Positions 43,305 through 56,307 of a DNA stretch of 64,000 nt are shown here, one piece after another. Under the pieces are notes generated by a model that saw nothing but the letters and a program-made list of their open reading frames with translations, had not been told where the DNA came from and ran no database searches. This DNA is from Escherichia coli (GTDB lineage Bacteria; Pseudomonadota; Gammaproteobacteria; Enterobacterales; Enterobacteriaceae): the NCBI RefSeq assembly GCF_003334405.1, contig NZ_QOWM01000012.1; one strand, given 5' to 3'. How positions within the stretch are numbered: the stretch's first letter is position 1; each line of letters starts with the position of its first letter. A program made the translations under genes and the position numbers.

Positions 43305-43484
43305 TGATGACTCCGGATAACGATGTCAGGTTATTGGCAAAAGGCGTGCCAATAATTTTTATGTGAATAATCAATAGATTGAAAAATGGGCGGAAAGGCC
43401 ATTTCCGGTCTGGTGGAAATACGCCTGCCGCAGAAAGAACAACACCGCCCGCAGGCGGTGTTGAGACTGATGACAAACGCAACA

Positions 43485-43590
43485 CTGCCTGATGCGCTGC
43501 GCTTATCAGGCCTACAAGGTTTCTGCAATATATTGAATTTGCAATATTTTGTAGGCCGGATAAGGCGTTCACGCCGCATCCGGCAAGTCC
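43485..43590. repeat. REP elements between lafB and lafA
   Basis: cctgatgcgctgcgcttatcaggcctac ... gtaggccggataaggcgttcacgccgcatccggcaag. Confidence 0.7.
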
Positions 43591-43594
43591 GCCA

Positions 43595-44509
43595 TTACTG
43601 CAGCAGGCTGGAAACCATGCTGGACATGCTGTTGGACTGTTTCAGCATGGTGATGCCGGTCTGCATCAGCACCTGCTGTTTGGTCATATTGGACGCTTCC
43701 GTAGCGTAGTCGGTATCCATGATGTTACCGATAGCAACTTCGGTGTTGTCCTGCATACTGGTCAGGTTATTAGCCGTGTCGTTCAGACGGTTGATAGACG
43801 CACCCAGCTTGGACTGGATCTGCGAAACATCATCCATCGCGGTAGAAATGCTGGTGATCATCTGGTTAGCCGAGCCAGACGCAGTCAGTTCAGTACCGCC
43901 AGAAACGCCTGCGGTGCCTGTGGTGTCTGCCTGATCCGCACTGAAGGAGTTGCTGATAGCAGAAAGGTCAGTCACCAGCGTGTTCAGTTGGCTAGAGATG
44001 TTCACGGTCATGGTGTCGGAAGATTCCGCGCCCACCTGGAAAGTTACCGCGCTCTGGAACAGGCCGTCAGTACCGGTGTTGCTGGTGCCGGAAACACCGA
44101 ACAGGTTGGTGCCGCCGTAGGTGGTGTTTTGCAGCATGTCAGACATCTGCTGGCCCAGTTCGTCGTATTCGTCCTGCATCGCCTGCAGATCGTCGTCGCT
44201 GTAGGTGCCGTTCGCTGCCTGAGTTGACAGGTCTTTCATACGACCCAGCACGTCAGACATTTCGTCGAACATGCTGTCGGCGGTTTGCAGCATCGCGGTG
44301 GCATCATTGATGTTGCTCAGCGCAACATCCATACCGCTGGACTGTGCTGTCAGACGGTTAGCAATTTGTTTGCCTGCGGCGTCATCGGCAGAAGAGTTAA
44401 TCCGGTTACCTGTCGCCAGGCGTTCCATAGATGTAGACAGAGAAGAGCTGCTTTTGCTGATTGCATTAACGGCGGCCATTGAGGCGTTATTGGTGTTAAT
44501 AGATAACAT
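43595..44509 (-). CDS. lafA: Lateral flagellin
   Basis: The ORF track starts at 44575; the conserved flagellin N-terminus MLSINTNNASMAAVNAISK begins at ~44509; conserved C-terminal D0 region. Confidence 0.85.
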   Translation of the reverse strand: MLSINTNNASMAAVNAISKSSSSLSTSMERLATGNRINSSADDAAGKQIANRLTAQSSGMDVALSNINDATAMLQTADSMFDEMSDVLGRMKDLSTQAANGTYSDDDLQAMQDEYDELGQQMSDMLQNTTYGGTNLFGVSGTSNTGTDGLFQSAVTFQVGAESSDTMTVNISSQLNTLVTDLSAISNSFSADQADTTGTAGVSGGTELTASGSANQMITSISTAMDDVSQIQSKLGASINRLNDTANNLTSMQDNTEVAIGNIMDTDYATEASNMTKQQVLMQTGITMLKQSNSMSSMVSSLLQ

Positions 44510-44943
44510 GATACTGCTCCTTGGGATTAATCGTTTTCGTTTCGATACCCTGTAAAAACGACACCTCGGGAGCAAACTTAAAACCGCCGTTAAAAAAATT
44601 TCACTGCGGTTTATCTGATGCCACTTTTAGCTAAAAAAAGCAGAGTTTAAATTCAGATAAAAAGATTATTAGCAATATCTGCCACATGGCCAGGTATCAA
44701 AATATGTCTTTATCAAACGCTTGATATAGTTAAGATTACCATCAATTAACGCGTTTTCTTCTCAATGTACTGATGCCAAAATTTACATTGCGTTGCAAAT
44801 AGTACACATTTGGCTATTGTACCTGTCCTGTCATTTCGTTACATTTCCACGCCATATAGTGATTAAGAATAATCCTATTACCATAAAATATTAATTATCA
44901 CGCAGAAAAATCATCTTCTCAGGGACGTATAAGACTGTGCTTT

Positions 44944-45837
44944 ATGCAAAGCACTATCAGGAAACATTTATCCCTTGCTAAGGTAAACTCAACTATGAGT
45001 ATTATTATCAACAACTGGCGGATGGACCCGTCGCTTAATGCCTTAATACATTGCGAAACGGGTGAAACACGTCGTCTCGGCGAATACCATTTTATTTTGC
45101 TGGAAACATTAGCAAAAAATGCCGATGTGGTTTTATCGCGATCTTATTTATGTGCCGAAGTATGGAAGAACCGCATTGTCGGCGGTAACAGCCTGCCGAC
45201 GGCGATACATGCATTACGCGTTGCTATCGACGATGATGGCAAACAACAGAACATTATTAAAACCATCCCGAAAAAAGGTTACCTGTGCAATAAAGAGTAT
45301 GTGTCTTTGCCGGAGTCATCGCCTGCGGAAGCGCTGATTATTACCAACCAGGTACAGGAAACTGTGCCAGGAGAGATATCTTCGACAACCCTGCCTGTGC
45401 CTGTTAGAAAAAAACATAAAGGACTGATGGGGTTAGCGTTGACCGCGGCTGTTATATTTATTGGCTCGACCGTGGGGTATTCACACTTGAAAAGTACACC
45501 TGACGCCCCGCAACTGGTAAAAGAGTCAATTAACAGCCCAAGAATAAAAATATTTCACCTTAGTTCTGGAAAAGAAAATAATTCCGCACCGTTACTGTCA
45601 CAAACCCTCGCACCAGGAAAAGACAAACTCGATAATTTATTGTCAGCGCATAATATGACAATGACAACCTATTATAAATATGTTCGTAACCGACTGGAGA
45701 GTGATATTGTTCTGCGCAACCAGTGCAACGGTAGCTGGCAATTAACCTTTAATGTGGATGAGTGGCAGAATAGCGATATTAATAGCGCGATGTATCAGAA
45801 TTTAGAGAAGTTGTTAAATACTGTGCAGAAGTGCTGA
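44944..45837 (+). CDS. lafZ: ToxR/CadC-like membrane-anchored transcriptional regulator
   Basis: N-terminal OmpR/PhoB-type winged helix, single TM helix GLMGLALTAAVIFIGSTVGY, periplasmic C-terminal domain; start may be MSIIINN at 44995. Confidence 0.7.
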   Translation: MQSTIRKHLSLAKVNSTMSIIINNWRMDPSLNALIHCETGETRRLGEYHFILLETLAKNADVVLSRSYLCAEVWKNRIVGGNSLPTAIHALRVAIDDDGKQQNIIKTIPKKGYLCNKEYVSLPESSPAEALIITNQVQETVPGEISSTTLPVPVRKKHKGLMGLALTAAVIFIGSTVGYSHLKSTPDAPQLVKESINSPRIKIFHLSSGKENNSAPLLSQTLAPGKDKLDNLLSAHNMTMTTYYKYVRNRLESDIVLRNQCNGSWQLTFNVDEWQNSDINSAMYQNLEKLLNTVQKC

Positions 45838-45844
45838 TGAGTGC

Positions 45845-45892
45845 CAATATATGCCGGATGCGACGCTAAACGCGTCTTATCCGGCCTACCGA
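45845..45892. repeat. REP element
   Basis: gccggatgcgacgctaaacgcgtcttatccggcctac. Confidence 0.6.
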
Positions 45893-45895
45893 TAA

Positions 45896-46873
45896 TTATC
45901 CCAATAAACTCCTCACCGTCTGGCTGGAAATTCGCGCCTGACCATTCACCGCCTGCAATAACACCTGATAGTTATGATTCGCGCTATCCAACACGCCGCC
46001 GAGATTTTCCGACGCCTGCACGGCGTTTTCCGTTTGCGGGAAGCGGGACATGCCGTCGATCAACTGGCGGGCTTTTTCCTGCTGCACCGCCATTTGCGCG
46101 CGCTGCTGATTAATGTTTTCTAACATCTGGGAAATCCCTGCCCCGCCCTGTTGCAGGCTTTGCGCTAAACGCTCGGCCTGCGACGGTTCGGCAAAGGTTT
46201 TTAGCGGCATAAACGCCGACTTATCACCATCGGTGCGCACGCTTAAGGTGCTTTCAATGTTGGGCCACTGCTTTTCGGTGGTGGAGAAGCTGATGCCGTC
46301 CGCTTGCTGATGCAGTTGCACACCCACGCGGCGCAGGGCGTTGGTCAGCCGCGTCTGATACTGCGCGGCGCTGTCATCCTCAGACAGCATCACCGCCGAA
46401 AGCTGAGTCTGCCGCCCGTCAGAGACGCTGAACATGCGCGTTCCCGGCGTGGGGTTGTGTACGAGATTCGCCAGATCCGGCGAGTGAAAAGTCACCCGCG
46501 CCTCGCCCTGCAACACTGGCTGCAACTGGCGGTCTACCGCACCGCCGGAAAGCGCGGTGCGTTTGTCCAGCATCTGCATCAGCGCCGTACTCTGCGCCTG
46601 CCCGCCCTTACGCTGGCTGTGACGATAATCGAGCAACTGCTGCTCCAGTTGCCCGAGGTAGTGATCCGCCTGCTGCAACGTGGTGAGCTGGTCGTTAAGC
46701 TGCACGCTGTAACGCTGCGGGCGAGTGGTAATCAGCGGCGAGGCCGGATATTCACTCGCCGTCGCCGGGAGTTTTTGCCGCACCGCCTGAGTGGGCGCAA
46801 CGGTTGACGACGATACCGCAGCGCTATGCGCGCTGCCGGTGGCGAGTGACGAAGAAGTAAGTCCGACCTGCAT
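45896..46873 (-). CDS. lafW: Lateral-flagella-specific protein of unknown function
   Basis: 325-aa Gln-rich ORF at the conserved position between lafZ and the flgL homolog. Confidence 0.6.
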   Translation of the reverse strand: MQVGLTSSSLATGSAHSAAVSSSTVAPTQAVRQKLPATASEYPASPLITTRPQRYSVQLNDQLTTLQQADHYLGQLEQQLLDYRHSQRKGGQAQSTALMQMLDKRTALSGGAVDRQLQPVLQGEARVTFHSPDLANLVHNPTPGTRMFSVSDGRQTQLSAVMLSEDDSAAQYQTRLTNALRRVGVQLHQQADGISFSTTEKQWPNIESTLSVRTDGDKSAFMPLKTFAEPSQAERLAQSLQQGGAGISQMLENINQQRAQMAVQQEKARQLIDGMSRFPQTENAVQASENLGGVLDSANHNYQVLLQAVNGQARISSQTVRSLLG

Positions 46874-55890: not shown

Positions 55891-56226
55891 TTATTTCCCT
55901 TCAATGGCCTCTCTGATGCCGCTGATTTGCAGATTCAGAAAGGTCAGACTGCTTTGATAATCCATACTATTTTGTGAAAACCGCGCCTGTTCGCTGTTCA
56001 GCTCCACGGTGTTGCCATCTTCCGACGGCTGCATCGGCACGCGGTACTGGACATCCACCGCCGCGTTATTTGCCCGTTGCATCTCCCTGGCAAAATCAAT
56101 ATCTTTAGCCTTGAAATTTGGCGTATCGACGTTCGCCAGATTCGCAGTCAGTAGCTCGGTCCTCTCAAGACGTAACTTCACTGCCTGCGGATGTACTCCC
56201 AATGCCTGTTGAAAACTGATCCCCAT
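55891..56226 (-). CDS. lfgB: Rod protein, FlgB-like
   Basis: The ORF track starts at 56256; an internal start MGISFQQALG at 56226 leaves room for a divergent promoter with lfgA. Confidence 0.8.
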   Translation of the reverse strand: MGISFQQALGVHPQAVKLRLERTELLTANLANVDTPNFKAKDIDFAREMQRANNAAVDVQYRVPMQPSEDGNTVELNSEQARFSQNSMDYQSSLTFLNLQISGIREAIEGK

Positions 56227-56307
56227 TTCCTGCGTCACTCCTGCTTCAATCCGCATACGCTAAGCAATCGCCGTGCCATTTTTTAAGTGACTGATGAGAA
56301 AGGGTTT

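What the first reader, a model, noticed from the sequence alone, without database searches (positions are those of the whole stretch)
44944..45837. ToxR/CadC-type one-component membrane regulator inside the flagellar cluster
lafZ encodes an OmpR-type winged-helix domain, one transmembrane helix and a periplasmic domain, and is divergently placed beside the flagellin gene. It could couple a periplasmic or surface signal directly to lateral-flagellin transcription.
Basis: inference. Interest (0 to 1): 0.3.

Follow-up and report, generated by a model that had tools for sequence, protein, structure and literature searches.

The report
Membrane-anchored regulator gene in lateral-flagella cluster
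lafZ is the already-named ToxR-like membrane-anchored regulator gene of the E. coli second (lateral) flagellar locus; what is new is that in most other enterobacteria it has an overlapping partner gene, which E. coli has lost.

Summary
The window is the E. coli Flag-2 (lateral flagella) locus, and the ORF is real. Its conserved start is ATG 44995 (280 aa), not 44944.

The protein has three parts:
- an N-terminal OmpR-type winged helix (Pfam Trans_reg_C, E=4e-13; best solved relatives are the ToxR and CadC DNA-binding domains);
- one N-in transmembrane helix;
- a 114-aa periplasmic domain.

The periplasmic domain is modelled with confidence (pLDDT 91) as the beta2-alpha-beta3-alpha fold of VtrA and ToxR. 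It carries two invariant cysteines, one of them the last residue.

lafZ lies divergent from the flagellin gene lafA, across a 485-bp AT-rich spacer. The class assignment is therefore supported. It is also already in the literature ("putative transmembrane regulator", 2005 and 2020).

New here: in 68 of 80 related loci, a ~155-aa membrane-anchored periplasmic protein gene overlaps the lafZ stop codon. This is the ToxR/ToxS or VtrA/VtrC "co-component" layout. Escherichia and Pseudocitrobacter have lost that gene; only a REP element remains.

Their LafZ is still under purifying selection (omega about 0.1).

lafA itself has a conserved sigma-28-type promoter, so direct control of flagellin by LafZ is untested. 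No experiment on LafZ was found.

The parts
44995..45837 (+). lafZ coding sequence (280 aa plus stop), taken from the conserved start codon
   Evidence: ORF listing and sequence. Start conserved across homologues. RefSeq annotation WP_000022372.1 'transcriptional regulator'. 100% identical in many E. coli chromosomes; the region is present in 1272 of 5426 complete genomes.
44944..44994 (+). 17-codon upstream extension of the longest ORF; probably 5' untranslated leader, not coding
   Evidence: The upstream ATG is frameshifted, mutated or preceded by stops in relatives. Homologues start at MSI.... An AAGG Shine-Dalgarno-like element at 44980-44983 lies 10 nt before ATG 44995.
45067..45285 (+). 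OmpR/PhoB-type winged-helix DNA-binding domain (core match; the whole domain is about residues 1-105). Cytoplasmic.
   Evidence: Pfam PF00486, E=4e-13. ToxR 8b4b E=3.7e-8 and CadC 5ju7 E=2.3e-6. Eighteen invariant residues fall in this domain across 52 sequences. omega 0.03-0.10. pLDDT above 90.
45325..45393 (+). Disordered, fast-evolving cytoplasmic linker (residues 111-133)
   Evidence: pLDDT below 50. Unalignable and of variable length among homologues. omega 0.5-1.2 for linker plus TM.
45421..45492 (+). Single transmembrane helix (residues 143-166), N-in
   Evidence: It is the only Kyte-Doolittle peak (1.85). RKKHK flanks it on the N side and SHLKSTPD on the C side. AlphaFold2 helix 144-166.
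45493..45834 (+). Periplasmic domain (residues 167-280) with a beta2-alpha-beta3-alpha fold. Invariant Cys244 (45724-45726) and Cys280 (45832-45834; the last codon).
44510..44994 (.). AT-rich (about 35% GC) divergent lafA-lafZ control region. Presumed to hold the lafZ promoter and any LafZ binding sites (inferred).
   Evidence: GC 0.33-0.38 against 0.52-0.65 in the flanks. The spacer is 430-990 bp and 29-40% GC in all 47 loci measured. It diverges together with lafZ.
44555..44582 (-). Conserved sigma-28-type promoter of lafA: TTTAAGTTT (44582-44574), N11, GTCGTTTT (44562-44555)
   Evidence: Read on the - strand. The same bipartite motif is in register upstream of lafA in 23 non-redundant loci. 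AAAACGAC occurs in 17/23 (shuffle maximum 8) and AAATTAA in 20/23 (shuffle maximum 14).
45852..45889 (.). REP element filling the 58-bp lafZ-lafW gap, at the place where other genera carry the partner gene
   Evidence: Sequence. Copies occur elsewhere in the window and in related loci. Weak naRNA4/REP-type Rfam match. The gap is 56-62 bp in six of the seven Escherichia/Pseudocitrobacter-type loci (307 bp in L009, with no ORF of 90 aa or more), against about 450-540 bp in most other genera.
43595..44509 (-). lafA, lateral flagellin; the divergent neighbour
   Evidence: ORF. RefSeq 'lateral flagellin LafA'.
45896..46873 (-). lafW (putative hook-associated protein); the convergent neighbour
   Evidence: ORF. 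RefSeq 'hypothetical protein'. Named LafW in PMC6993521.

Best explanation
lafZ (44995..45837) encodes a ToxR/VtrA-class transmembrane transcription regulator of the Flag-2 lateral-flagellar locus.

Shown:
- A cytoplasmic OmpR-type winged helix is joined by a disordered linker to one N-in transmembrane helix and a 114-aa periplasmic beta2-alpha-beta3-alpha domain.
- That domain has two invariant cysteines, one of them the C-terminal residue.
- In most Enterobacterales the gene is the first half of a translationally coupled pair. A ~155-aa protein with an N-terminal anchor or signal peptide starts at an ATG inside the LafZ ...N-E-M... codons (aATGAAATGg).
- Escherichia and Pseudocitrobacter have deleted this partner, leaving a REP element. 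They keep the winged helix and the periplasmic domain under purifying selection.

Inferred:
- The two cysteines form a periplasmic disulfide, as in ToxR.
- The periplasmic domain, together with the partner where present, controls LafZ stability or oligomerisation in response to an envelope or extracellular cue.
- The membrane-tethered winged helix binds AT-rich DNA near its own gene, most likely in the 485-bp lafA-lafZ spacer. From there it sets the level of Flag-2 expression on top of the LafK/sigma-54 and LafS/sigma-28 hierarchy.
- In E. coli, LafZ works without the partner: either signal-independently or through its own periplasmic domain.
For: Identity of the locus: 100% match to E. coli chromosomes, with full Flag-2 annotation.

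Domains:
- Pfam Trans_reg_C, E=4e-13.
- ToxR and CadC DNA-binding domains are the best hits in the PDB by sequence.
- One hydrophobic helix with RKKHK on the N side.
- Full-length model pLDDT 86.5.
- Periplasmic model pLDDT 91, with the same secondary-structure order that PMC9214523 gives for VtrA and ToxR.
- C244 and C280 are invariant in 52 sequences.

Partner:
- 68 of 80 loci have the overlapping ORF, with a conserved junction.
- The partner forms a family of 140 clusters, all 'hypothetical', none from Escherichia.
- tblastn finds nothing in the window.
- The Yersinia pseudotuberculosis pair (348 aa plus 148 aa, inside Flag-2) fits the BZ17_3283/3282 'lipocalin' candidate of PMC9214523.

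Selection: omega is 0.03-0.10 for the winged helix and 0.07-0.15 for the periplasmic domain among partner-less lineages. In Citrobacter, which keeps the partner, the periplasmic value is 0.22.

Link to Flag-2:
- Synteny lafA <- lafZ -> (partner) <- lafW across Enterobacteriaceae, Yersiniaceae, Erwiniaceae and Budviciaceae.
- A long AT-rich spacer everywhere.
- Regulator-only remnants, lafS <- lafZ -> partner -> <- lafK, in genomes that have lost the structural genes.
Against: - No experiment on LafZ was found, so neither target nor signal is known.
- The only conserved motif found in the spacer is the sigma-28-type lafA promoter, not a candidate LafZ site. There is no ToxR-box there.
- The fold matches are moderate. 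Ribosome hibernation factors with the same generic topology score as high or higher.
- The periplasmic domain has no sequence-level match to any solved structure.
- The partner's fold was not modelled here (structure-prediction cap). It has no Pfam, NCBIfam or PDB sequence match.
- lafZ-partner cassettes also occur with no flagellar genes within 8 kb in Erwinia, Pantoea and others, so the family is not strictly flagellar.
- LafA was not detected in E. coli EC958 under laboratory conditions (PMC4637896). Whatever LafZ does, it does not switch Flag-2 on there.
Confidence: 0.6

Rival explanations
1. One reading: LafZ is a self-contained one-component sensor that binds the lafA promoter and directly activates lateral-flagellin transcription in response to a periplasmic or surface signal.
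For: The divergent arrangement with lafA is conserved in about 45 loci. ToxR-class regulators usually act on an adjacent gene (VtrA-vtrB, PsaE-psaA, MarT-misL, CadC-cadBA; established knowledge and PMC9214523). The E. coli protein indeed has no partner.
Against: lafA carries a conserved sigma-28-type promoter about 50-75 bp upstream of its ATG, which places it in the late LafS-dependent class. No conserved second motif and no ToxR-box lie next to it. Where lafA has been deleted, lafZ is retained next to lafS and lafK. The family is ancestrally two-gene, not one-component.
Confidence: 0.2
2. E. coli lafZ is a functionless relic. After its partner was lost, the protein became unstable or inactive, and this contributes to Flag-2 being silent in E. 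coli.
For: The partner gene is deleted in all seven Escherichia/Pseudocitrobacter-type loci examined. ToxR, TcpP and VtrA depend on their partners for stability or activity (established knowledge; abstracts). LafA was not detected in E. coli EC958 at 28 or 37 C (PMC4637896). lafZ is AT-rich and lies in a divergence island.
Against: The reading frame is intact and 280 aa long in a cluster of 2295 sequences. omega is 0.03-0.15 for both folded domains across lineages that all lack the partner, no higher than in Citrobacter, which keeps it. Both cysteines are retained.
Confidence: 0.12
3. lafZ (with its partner) is a mobile, fast-evolving regulatory cassette that merely lodges in a Flag-2 variable region and controls non-flagellar genes.
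For: GC content is 10-20 points below the flanks. PMC6993521 treats the lafW-lafZ interval as horizontally acquired cargo, 'VR2'. Synonymous divergence is saturated between Escherichia and Pseudocitrobacter lafZ, although the flanks are 90-98% identical. Stand-alone cassettes occur in Erwinia and Pantoea, and one sits beside pectinase genes.
Against: The position and orientation between lafA and lafW are the same in four families. PMC6993521 uses lafZ as a marker conserved in most flag-2 loci. In remnant loci it stays with the flagellar regulators lafS and lafK.
Confidence: 0.08

Closest known systems
ToxR/ToxS of Vibrio (transmembrane transcription activator plus periplasmic partner)
   Different: No sequence similarity in the periplasmic domain. 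The E. coli copy has no partner gene at all. In the orthologues the partner overlaps the regulator gene, whereas PMC9214523 lists toxRS as non-overlapping. No ToxR-box in the adjacent spacer. The genomic setting is a flagellar locus, not a virulence or porin regulon.
[quoted passage not shown] 2022 (PMC9214523)
   Different: The defining second component is missing in Escherichia. VtrA itself lacks the disulfide. The paper does not mention flagella or Flag-2 (0 occurrences). The partner's lipocalin-like fold was not tested here.
CadC (pH/lysine-responsive one-component regulator of E. coli)
   Same: Membrane-tethered winged helix; second-best PDB sequence hit (5ju7, E=2.3e-6). No partner gene in the same operon. 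Databases name LafZ 'CadC family transcriptional regulator'.
YqeI/YqeJ and GrvA/FidL of E. coli (ToxR-like cassettes next to type III secretion islands)
   Same: The same general class in the same species: a ToxR-like regulator attached to a horizontally acquired type-III-secretion-related island.
   Different: Those keep their lipocalin partner and, per PMC9214523, lack the C-terminal helix that the LafZ model has. Not compared by sequence here.

Membership tests
ToxR-like transmembrane transcription regulators | N-terminal OmpR/PhoB-type winged-helix DNA-binding domain with no receiver domain | tested here: met
   Pfam PF00486 is the only domain found, E=4e-13. ToxR and CadC DNA-binding domains are the top PDB sequence hits. 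The winged helix starts at residue 1, leaving no room for a receiver domain.
ToxR-like transmembrane transcription regulators | Single transmembrane helix with cytoplasmic N-terminus and periplasmic C-terminus | tested here: met
   One hydropathy peak. The N flank is RKKHK (four basic residues plus a histidine); the C flank has one Lys and one Asp. AlphaFold2 helix 144-166. This is prediction only; no dedicated topology predictor or fusion data.
VtrA/ToxR co-component systems (PMC9214523) | Periplasmic beta2-alpha-beta3-alpha domain | tested here: met
VtrA/ToxR co-component systems (PMC9214523) | Conserved periplasmic disulfide involving a Cys near the C-terminus | tested here: inconclusive
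   C244 and C280 (the last residue) are invariant in 52 sequences. The Cys-Cys distance in the model and actual disulfide formation could not be measured.
VtrA/ToxR co-component systems (PMC9214523) | Adjacent, same-strand, usually overlapping gene for a membrane-anchored periplasmic partner | tested here: not met
   In the window only 58 bp and a REP element separate lafZ from the convergent lafW. tblastn with three partners finds nothing in 64 kb. No Escherichia protein appears among the listed best 120 of 140 partner clusters. The feature IS met in 68 of 80 orthologous loci.
VtrA/ToxR co-component systems (PMC9214523) | Partner has a VtrC/ToxS lipocalin-like beta-barrel that binds the regulator's periplasmic domain | not tested
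The partner has no Pfam, NCBIfam or PDB sequence match. The only support is the likely identity of the Yersinia pair with the 'lipocalin' candidate BZ17_3282.
CadC family (NCBIfam NF007540 equivalog) | Full-length match including the large two-subdomain periplasmic pH sensor | tested here: not met
   33.2 bits against a curated cut-off of 400, and the match covers only winged-helix residues 52-121. The periplasmic domain is 114 aa.
OmpR-family two-component response regulators | N-terminal receiver domain with a phospho-acceptor Asp | tested here: not met
   All response-regulator models match only their C-terminal DNA-binding part, far below their cut-offs. Pfam finds no receiver domain.
Flag-2 (lateral flagellar) regulon member | Regulates, or is regulated with, Flag-2 genes | not testable with these tools
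   Only conserved synteny and co-retention with lafS and lafK bear on this. No expression or binding data were found.

The most novel reading that the evidence does not exclude
The small 'hypothetical' gene that comparative studies list as horizontally acquired cargo between lafZ and lafW (VR2) is the sensor half of a ToxRS/VtrAC-type two-protein receptor. Together with LafZ it is the environmental gate of the second flagellar system in Enterobacterales. Escherichia and Pseudocitrobacter have lost this sensor half and run an orphan LafZ. That loss could explain why Flag-2 has not been seen expressed in E. coli, although it is expressed in Yersinia and Plesiomonas. It would also explain why lafZ, its partner, lafS and lafK survive together as regulator-only islands in genomes that have lost the flagellar structural genes.
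Probability: 0.3. Interest if true: 0.55.

Novelty: new member of a known kind. Interest (0 to 1): 0.3.

Why it matters
As written, the finding restates a 2005 annotation: lafZ is a putative transmembrane regulator of Flag-2. That part is ordinary.

The comparative result adds a concrete and testable point. The Flag-2 locus of most enterobacteria carries a complete ToxRS/VtrAC-like two-gene sensor, and its second gene has been overlooked as "cargo". E. coli has a natural partner-less version.

What signal switches the second flagellar system on is an open question. This pair gives a defined candidate for it, plus a natural experiment: E. coli against Citrobacter, or E. coli complemented with the Citrobacter lafZ-partner pair. 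It also adds a flagellum-linked member to a receptor class so far tied to virulence islands.

Tried and rejected
- The canonical sigma-28 consensus TAAAG-N-GCCGWTAA gave 0 hits in the window. The lafA promoter was found only by aligning upstream regions across genera.
- The ToxR-box TNAAA-N5-TNAAA gave 7 hits in the window, none in the lafA-lafZ spacer.
- The sigma-70 scan of 44400-46000 gave only 9/12 matches, about twice the shuffle mean and not informative. No terminator was found.
- Repeat search in the spacer found only short two-copy families. One inverted repeat (44581-44612) overlaps the lafA -35 but is absent from the nearest divergent Escherichia locus.
- Rfam on 44300-46100 returned only sub-threshold REP-type naRNA4 matches.
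- The periplasmic-domain profile against PDB sequences found nothing relevant.
- The partner profile against Pfam, NCBIfam and PDB sequences found nothing. The K2P-channel hits are only the hydrophobic N-terminus.
- tblastn of partner proteins against the whole window found nothing.
- A literature search for 'lafZ' alone returned 743 unrelated papers. Combined with 'Flag-2' it gave three papers, none experimental.
- Ren et al. 2005 (PMC545627) is not held, and the supplements of PMC9214523 are not held. The identity of BZ17_3283 with the Yersinia LafZ therefore rests on length, species, domain boundaries and the overlap.
- The idea that the 90-aa ORF 45841..46113 could be a partner remnant was rejected. 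It lies antisense inside lafW and has no similarity to partners.
- The idea that the two genes between lafW and lafZ in strain 042 are the partner was rejected. They are a RelE/ParE toxin-antitoxin pair.

Full report
**What the window is.** The 1.3 kb around the finding is 100% identical to many E. coli chromosomes and is present in 1272 of 5426 complete E. coli genomes. The RefSeq annotation of one of them shows the complete Flag-2 (lateral flagella) locus between dinB and the lfi/lfh genes. In it, a 'transcriptional regulator' lies between 'lateral flagellin LafA' and a hypothetical protein, followed by FlgL and FlgK. This is the gene called lafZ. PMC6993521, citing the original 2005 description, calls it a 'putative transmembrane regulator' and uses it as a marker of flag-2 loci. 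PMC7526173 lists LafK and LafZ as the regulators unique to flag-2.

**Checking the observation.** The ORF 44944..45837 exists, but its first 17 codons are not conserved.
- The upstream ATG is frameshifted in Escherichia sp. E1V33 and reads ATA in E. whittamii.
- In-frame stops precede the conserved start in Pseudocitrobacter, Citrobacter and others.
- All aligned homologues begin at the equivalent of ATG 44995, where RefSeq also starts the protein. An AAGG lies 10 nt upstream of it.

The gene is therefore 44995..45837 and the protein is 280 aa. Numbering below uses that form.

**Anatomy.**
- Pfam finds one domain, Trans_reg_C (E=4e-13).
- By sequence, the closest solved structures are the DNA-binding domains of V. 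cholerae ToxR (E=3.7e-8) and E. coli CadC (2.3e-6), ahead of all response regulators.
- NCBIfam models match only this winged helix and are far below their cut-offs (CadC 33 bits against 400).
- There is a single hydrophobic segment, residues 143-162, with RKKHK before it. The full-length AlphaFold2 model (pLDDT 86.5) shows a helix at 144-166, preceded by a disordered linker at 111-133.
- The C-terminal 118 residues, modelled from an alignment of 50 homologues, give pLDDT 91 and pTM 0.82, with the element order beta-beta-alpha-beta-beta-beta-alpha.

- Foldseek ranks VtrA third, with probability 0.97.
- There is no sequence-level match of this domain to any solved structure.
- Across 52 full-length homologues, the invariant residues are 18 positions in the winged helix plus two cysteines, C244 and C280; C280 is the last residue of the E. 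coli protein. PMC9214523 notes that these regulators carry a conserved disulfide with one Cys near the C-terminus.

**The unexpected part: a partner gene elsewhere, and none in E. coli.**
- Three distant homologues looked up on their contigs each had a 143-157-aa gene without Pfam domains overlapping the 3' end of the lafZ homologue. These proteins have a hydrophobic N-terminus and are weakly similar to one another.
- A scan of one genome per species returned 80 loci. In 68 of them an ORF (mostly 150-160 aa) starts 20-35 nt before the lafZ stop.
- The junction is stereotyped. The sequence aATGAAATGg encodes ...N-E-M... in LafZ and M-K-W/C in the partner, a few codons before the C-terminal Cys. 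PMC9214523 describes this overlap habit for TcpP/TcpH, PsaE/PsaF and others.
- The seven loci of Escherichia and Pseudocitrobacter type have no such ORF. LafZ ends ...LNTVQKC-stop, and in six of them only 56-62 bp, containing a REP element, separate it from the stop of the convergent lafW. The seventh, L009, has a 307-bp gap with no ORF of 90 aa or more.
- tblastn with partner proteins finds nothing anywhere in the window.
- A profile search of 5.8 billion proteins finds 140 partner clusters, all 'hypothetical'. The named ones come from Citrobacter, Enterobacter, Kluyvera, Yersinia, Erwinia and others, and none from Escherichia.
- The partner family has no Pfam, NCBIfam or PDB sequence match.
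- In strain 042 the lafW-lafZ gap holds a RelE/ParE toxin-antitoxin pair instead.
- PMC6993521 describes this interval as variable region VR2: present in 81% of loci, averaging 0.6 kb and one, mostly hypothetical, protein, and interpreted as horizontally acquired cargo.

The present data indicate that this 'cargo' is mostly the conserved, translationally coupled partner of LafZ. The partner is present in Citrobacter (the nearest relatives, 50% identity), Enterobacter, Leminorella, Yersinia, Erwinia, Budvicia and Pragia. The simplest history is therefore ancestral presence followed by loss in the Escherichia/Pseudocitrobacter lineage (inference).

**Link to the published co-component family.** In Y. 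pseudotuberculosis the pair sits inside Flag-2, between two flagellin genes and lafW. The regulator is 348 aa with its transmembrane helix at about 205-230, and the partner is 148 aa. PMC9214523 lists a Y. pseudotuberculosis candidate, BZ17_3283/BZ17_3282 ('lipocalin'). Its ORFs overlap across the Cys codon, and its periplasmic domain is modelled as residues 235-348. That is very probably the same pair. I could not confirm it, because the supplements are not held. The paper never mentions flagella.

**Is the orphan E. coli gene still functional?** Among the partner-less lineages:
- dN/dS is 0.03-0.10 for the winged helix and 0.07-0.15 for the periplasmic domain;
- dN/dS is 0.5-1.2 for the linker plus transmembrane segment;
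- in Citrobacter, which keeps the partner, the periplasmic domain gives 0.22 and the partner 0.16-0.19.

Both cysteines are retained, and the 280-aa form represents a cluster of 2295 sequences. This argues against decay.

There is also a sharp divergence island. Escherichia and Pseudocitrobacter are 90-98% identical over lafA and lafW, but only 30-80% identical from about 44600 to 45700, which covers the spacer and most of lafZ. Synonymous divergence there is saturated. lafZ and the spacer are also 10-20 GC points below their flanks.

**What it may control.**
- The lafA-lafZ spacer is long (430-990 bp) and AT-rich (29-40% GC) in all 47 loci measured.
- Aligning the lafA-proximal ends across 23 non-redundant loci shows a conserved bipartite motif preceded by an A/T tract. 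In E. coli it is TTTAAGTTT (44582-44574), N11, GTCGTTTT (44562-44555).
- Its two halves are far more widespread than in shuffled controls (17/23 and 20/23, against maxima of 8 and 14).
- It resembles the sigma-28 consensus TAAAGTTT-N11-GCCGATAA (established knowledge). This fits the presence of a dedicated FliA-type sigma factor in the locus. lafA is therefore most likely a late, LafS-dependent gene.

No second conserved motif and no ToxR-box were found in the spacer. Direct activation of lafA by LafZ is thus possible but is not indicated by the promoter architecture.

In several genomes that have lost all flagellar structural genes, a compact island remains: lafS <- lafZ -> partner -> <- lafK. 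These include Erwinia psidii, E. mallotivora, Winslowiella, Silvania, Kosakonia and Limnobaculum, plus the genome of L003. This ties LafZ to the regulatory tier.

Stand-alone lafZ-partner cassettes also exist in Erwinia and Pantoea, and one sits next to pectinase genes, so the family is not exclusively flagellar.

The only relevant experiment found is that LafA is undetectable in E. coli ST131 EC958 at 28 and 37 C (PMC4637896).

**Verdict.** The start coordinate needs correcting. 'One-component' describes a derived, partner-less state of what is elsewhere a ToxRS/VtrAC-type pair. The proposed direct coupling to flagellin transcription remains untested. Interest is modest (0.3). The partner-loss observation and the reinterpretation of VR2 'cargo' are the only new elements.

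Noticed in passing
window 43337-43351 (-) and 56264-56278 (-): Two perfect sigma-54 promoter matches (TGGCAC-N5-TTGC), where about 0.1 would be expected by chance. Each lies 30-45 nt upstream of an operon start: lafB/fliD (ATG 43304) and lfgB (ATG near 56224). This is consistent with the reported RpoN/LafK dependence of Flag-2.
   Followed up: partly
window 44600-45700 compared with L013/L014 (Pseudocitrobacter) and L011: A divergence island. The flanking lafA and lafW are 90-98% identical between Escherichia and Pseudocitrobacter, but the spacer and lafZ are only 30-80% identical, with saturated dS. Either the lafZ allele was replaced by recombination, or the flanks were recently exchanged between the genera.
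   Followed up: partly
L040, L041, L043, L052, L071, L081, L003/L004: Regulator-only islands: lafS (sigma-28) <- lafZ -> partner -> <- lafK (sigma-54 activator), with no flagellar structural genes within about 8 kb. They occur in several genera (Erwinia, Winslowiella, Silvania, Kosakonia, Limnobaculum). The regulators seem to outlive the machine they regulate.
   Followed up: partly
L007 (E. coli 042) 43887-44537; window 45838-45895: In strain 042 the lafW-lafZ gap carries a RelE/ParE toxin plus HTH antitoxin pair. In this window it holds only a REP element. PMC4637896 appears to conflate this pair with 'lafWZ'.
   Followed up: yes
window 43487-43515, 43552-43585, 45852-45889: REP elements flank lafA on its 3' side and fill the lafZ-lafW gap. 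A GC-rich hairpin (43439-43462, - strand) after lafA looks like its terminator.
   Followed up: no
L033 (record titled Chryseobacterium sp. 18061) compared with L032 (Citrobacter sp. 18056): A contig labelled Chryseobacterium carries an enterobacterial Flag-2 locus whose Flag-2 gene matches are almost identical in position and identity to those of a Citrobacter isolate from the same project. The assembly is probably mislabelled or contaminated.
   Followed up: no
L002 (metagenome contig), L035-L039, L045-L051, L062, L065, L069, L083: lafZ-partner cassettes with no flagellar gene nearby (Erwinia, Pantoea, Pluralibacter). One lies directly downstream of KdgM porin, pectinesterase and pectate lyase genes, which suggests that members of the family have been recruited to other regulons.
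   Followed up: no
window 44581-44612: An inverted repeat, AAACCGCCGTTAAA / TTTCACTGCGGTTT, overlaps the A/T tract and -35 region of the lafA promoter. It is not conserved in the divergent Escherichia locus L011, so its meaning is unclear.
   Followed up: partly
L015-L034 compared with L035-L087 partner genes (alignment A3): The partner family has two subtypes. One (Citrobacter, Leminorella and some Enterobacter) has a cleavable-looking signal peptide and two conserved cysteines. The other is broader, starts MKW, has an uncleaved-looking anchor and a QLGFYDL...EIYD motif, and has no cysteines.
   Followed up: no
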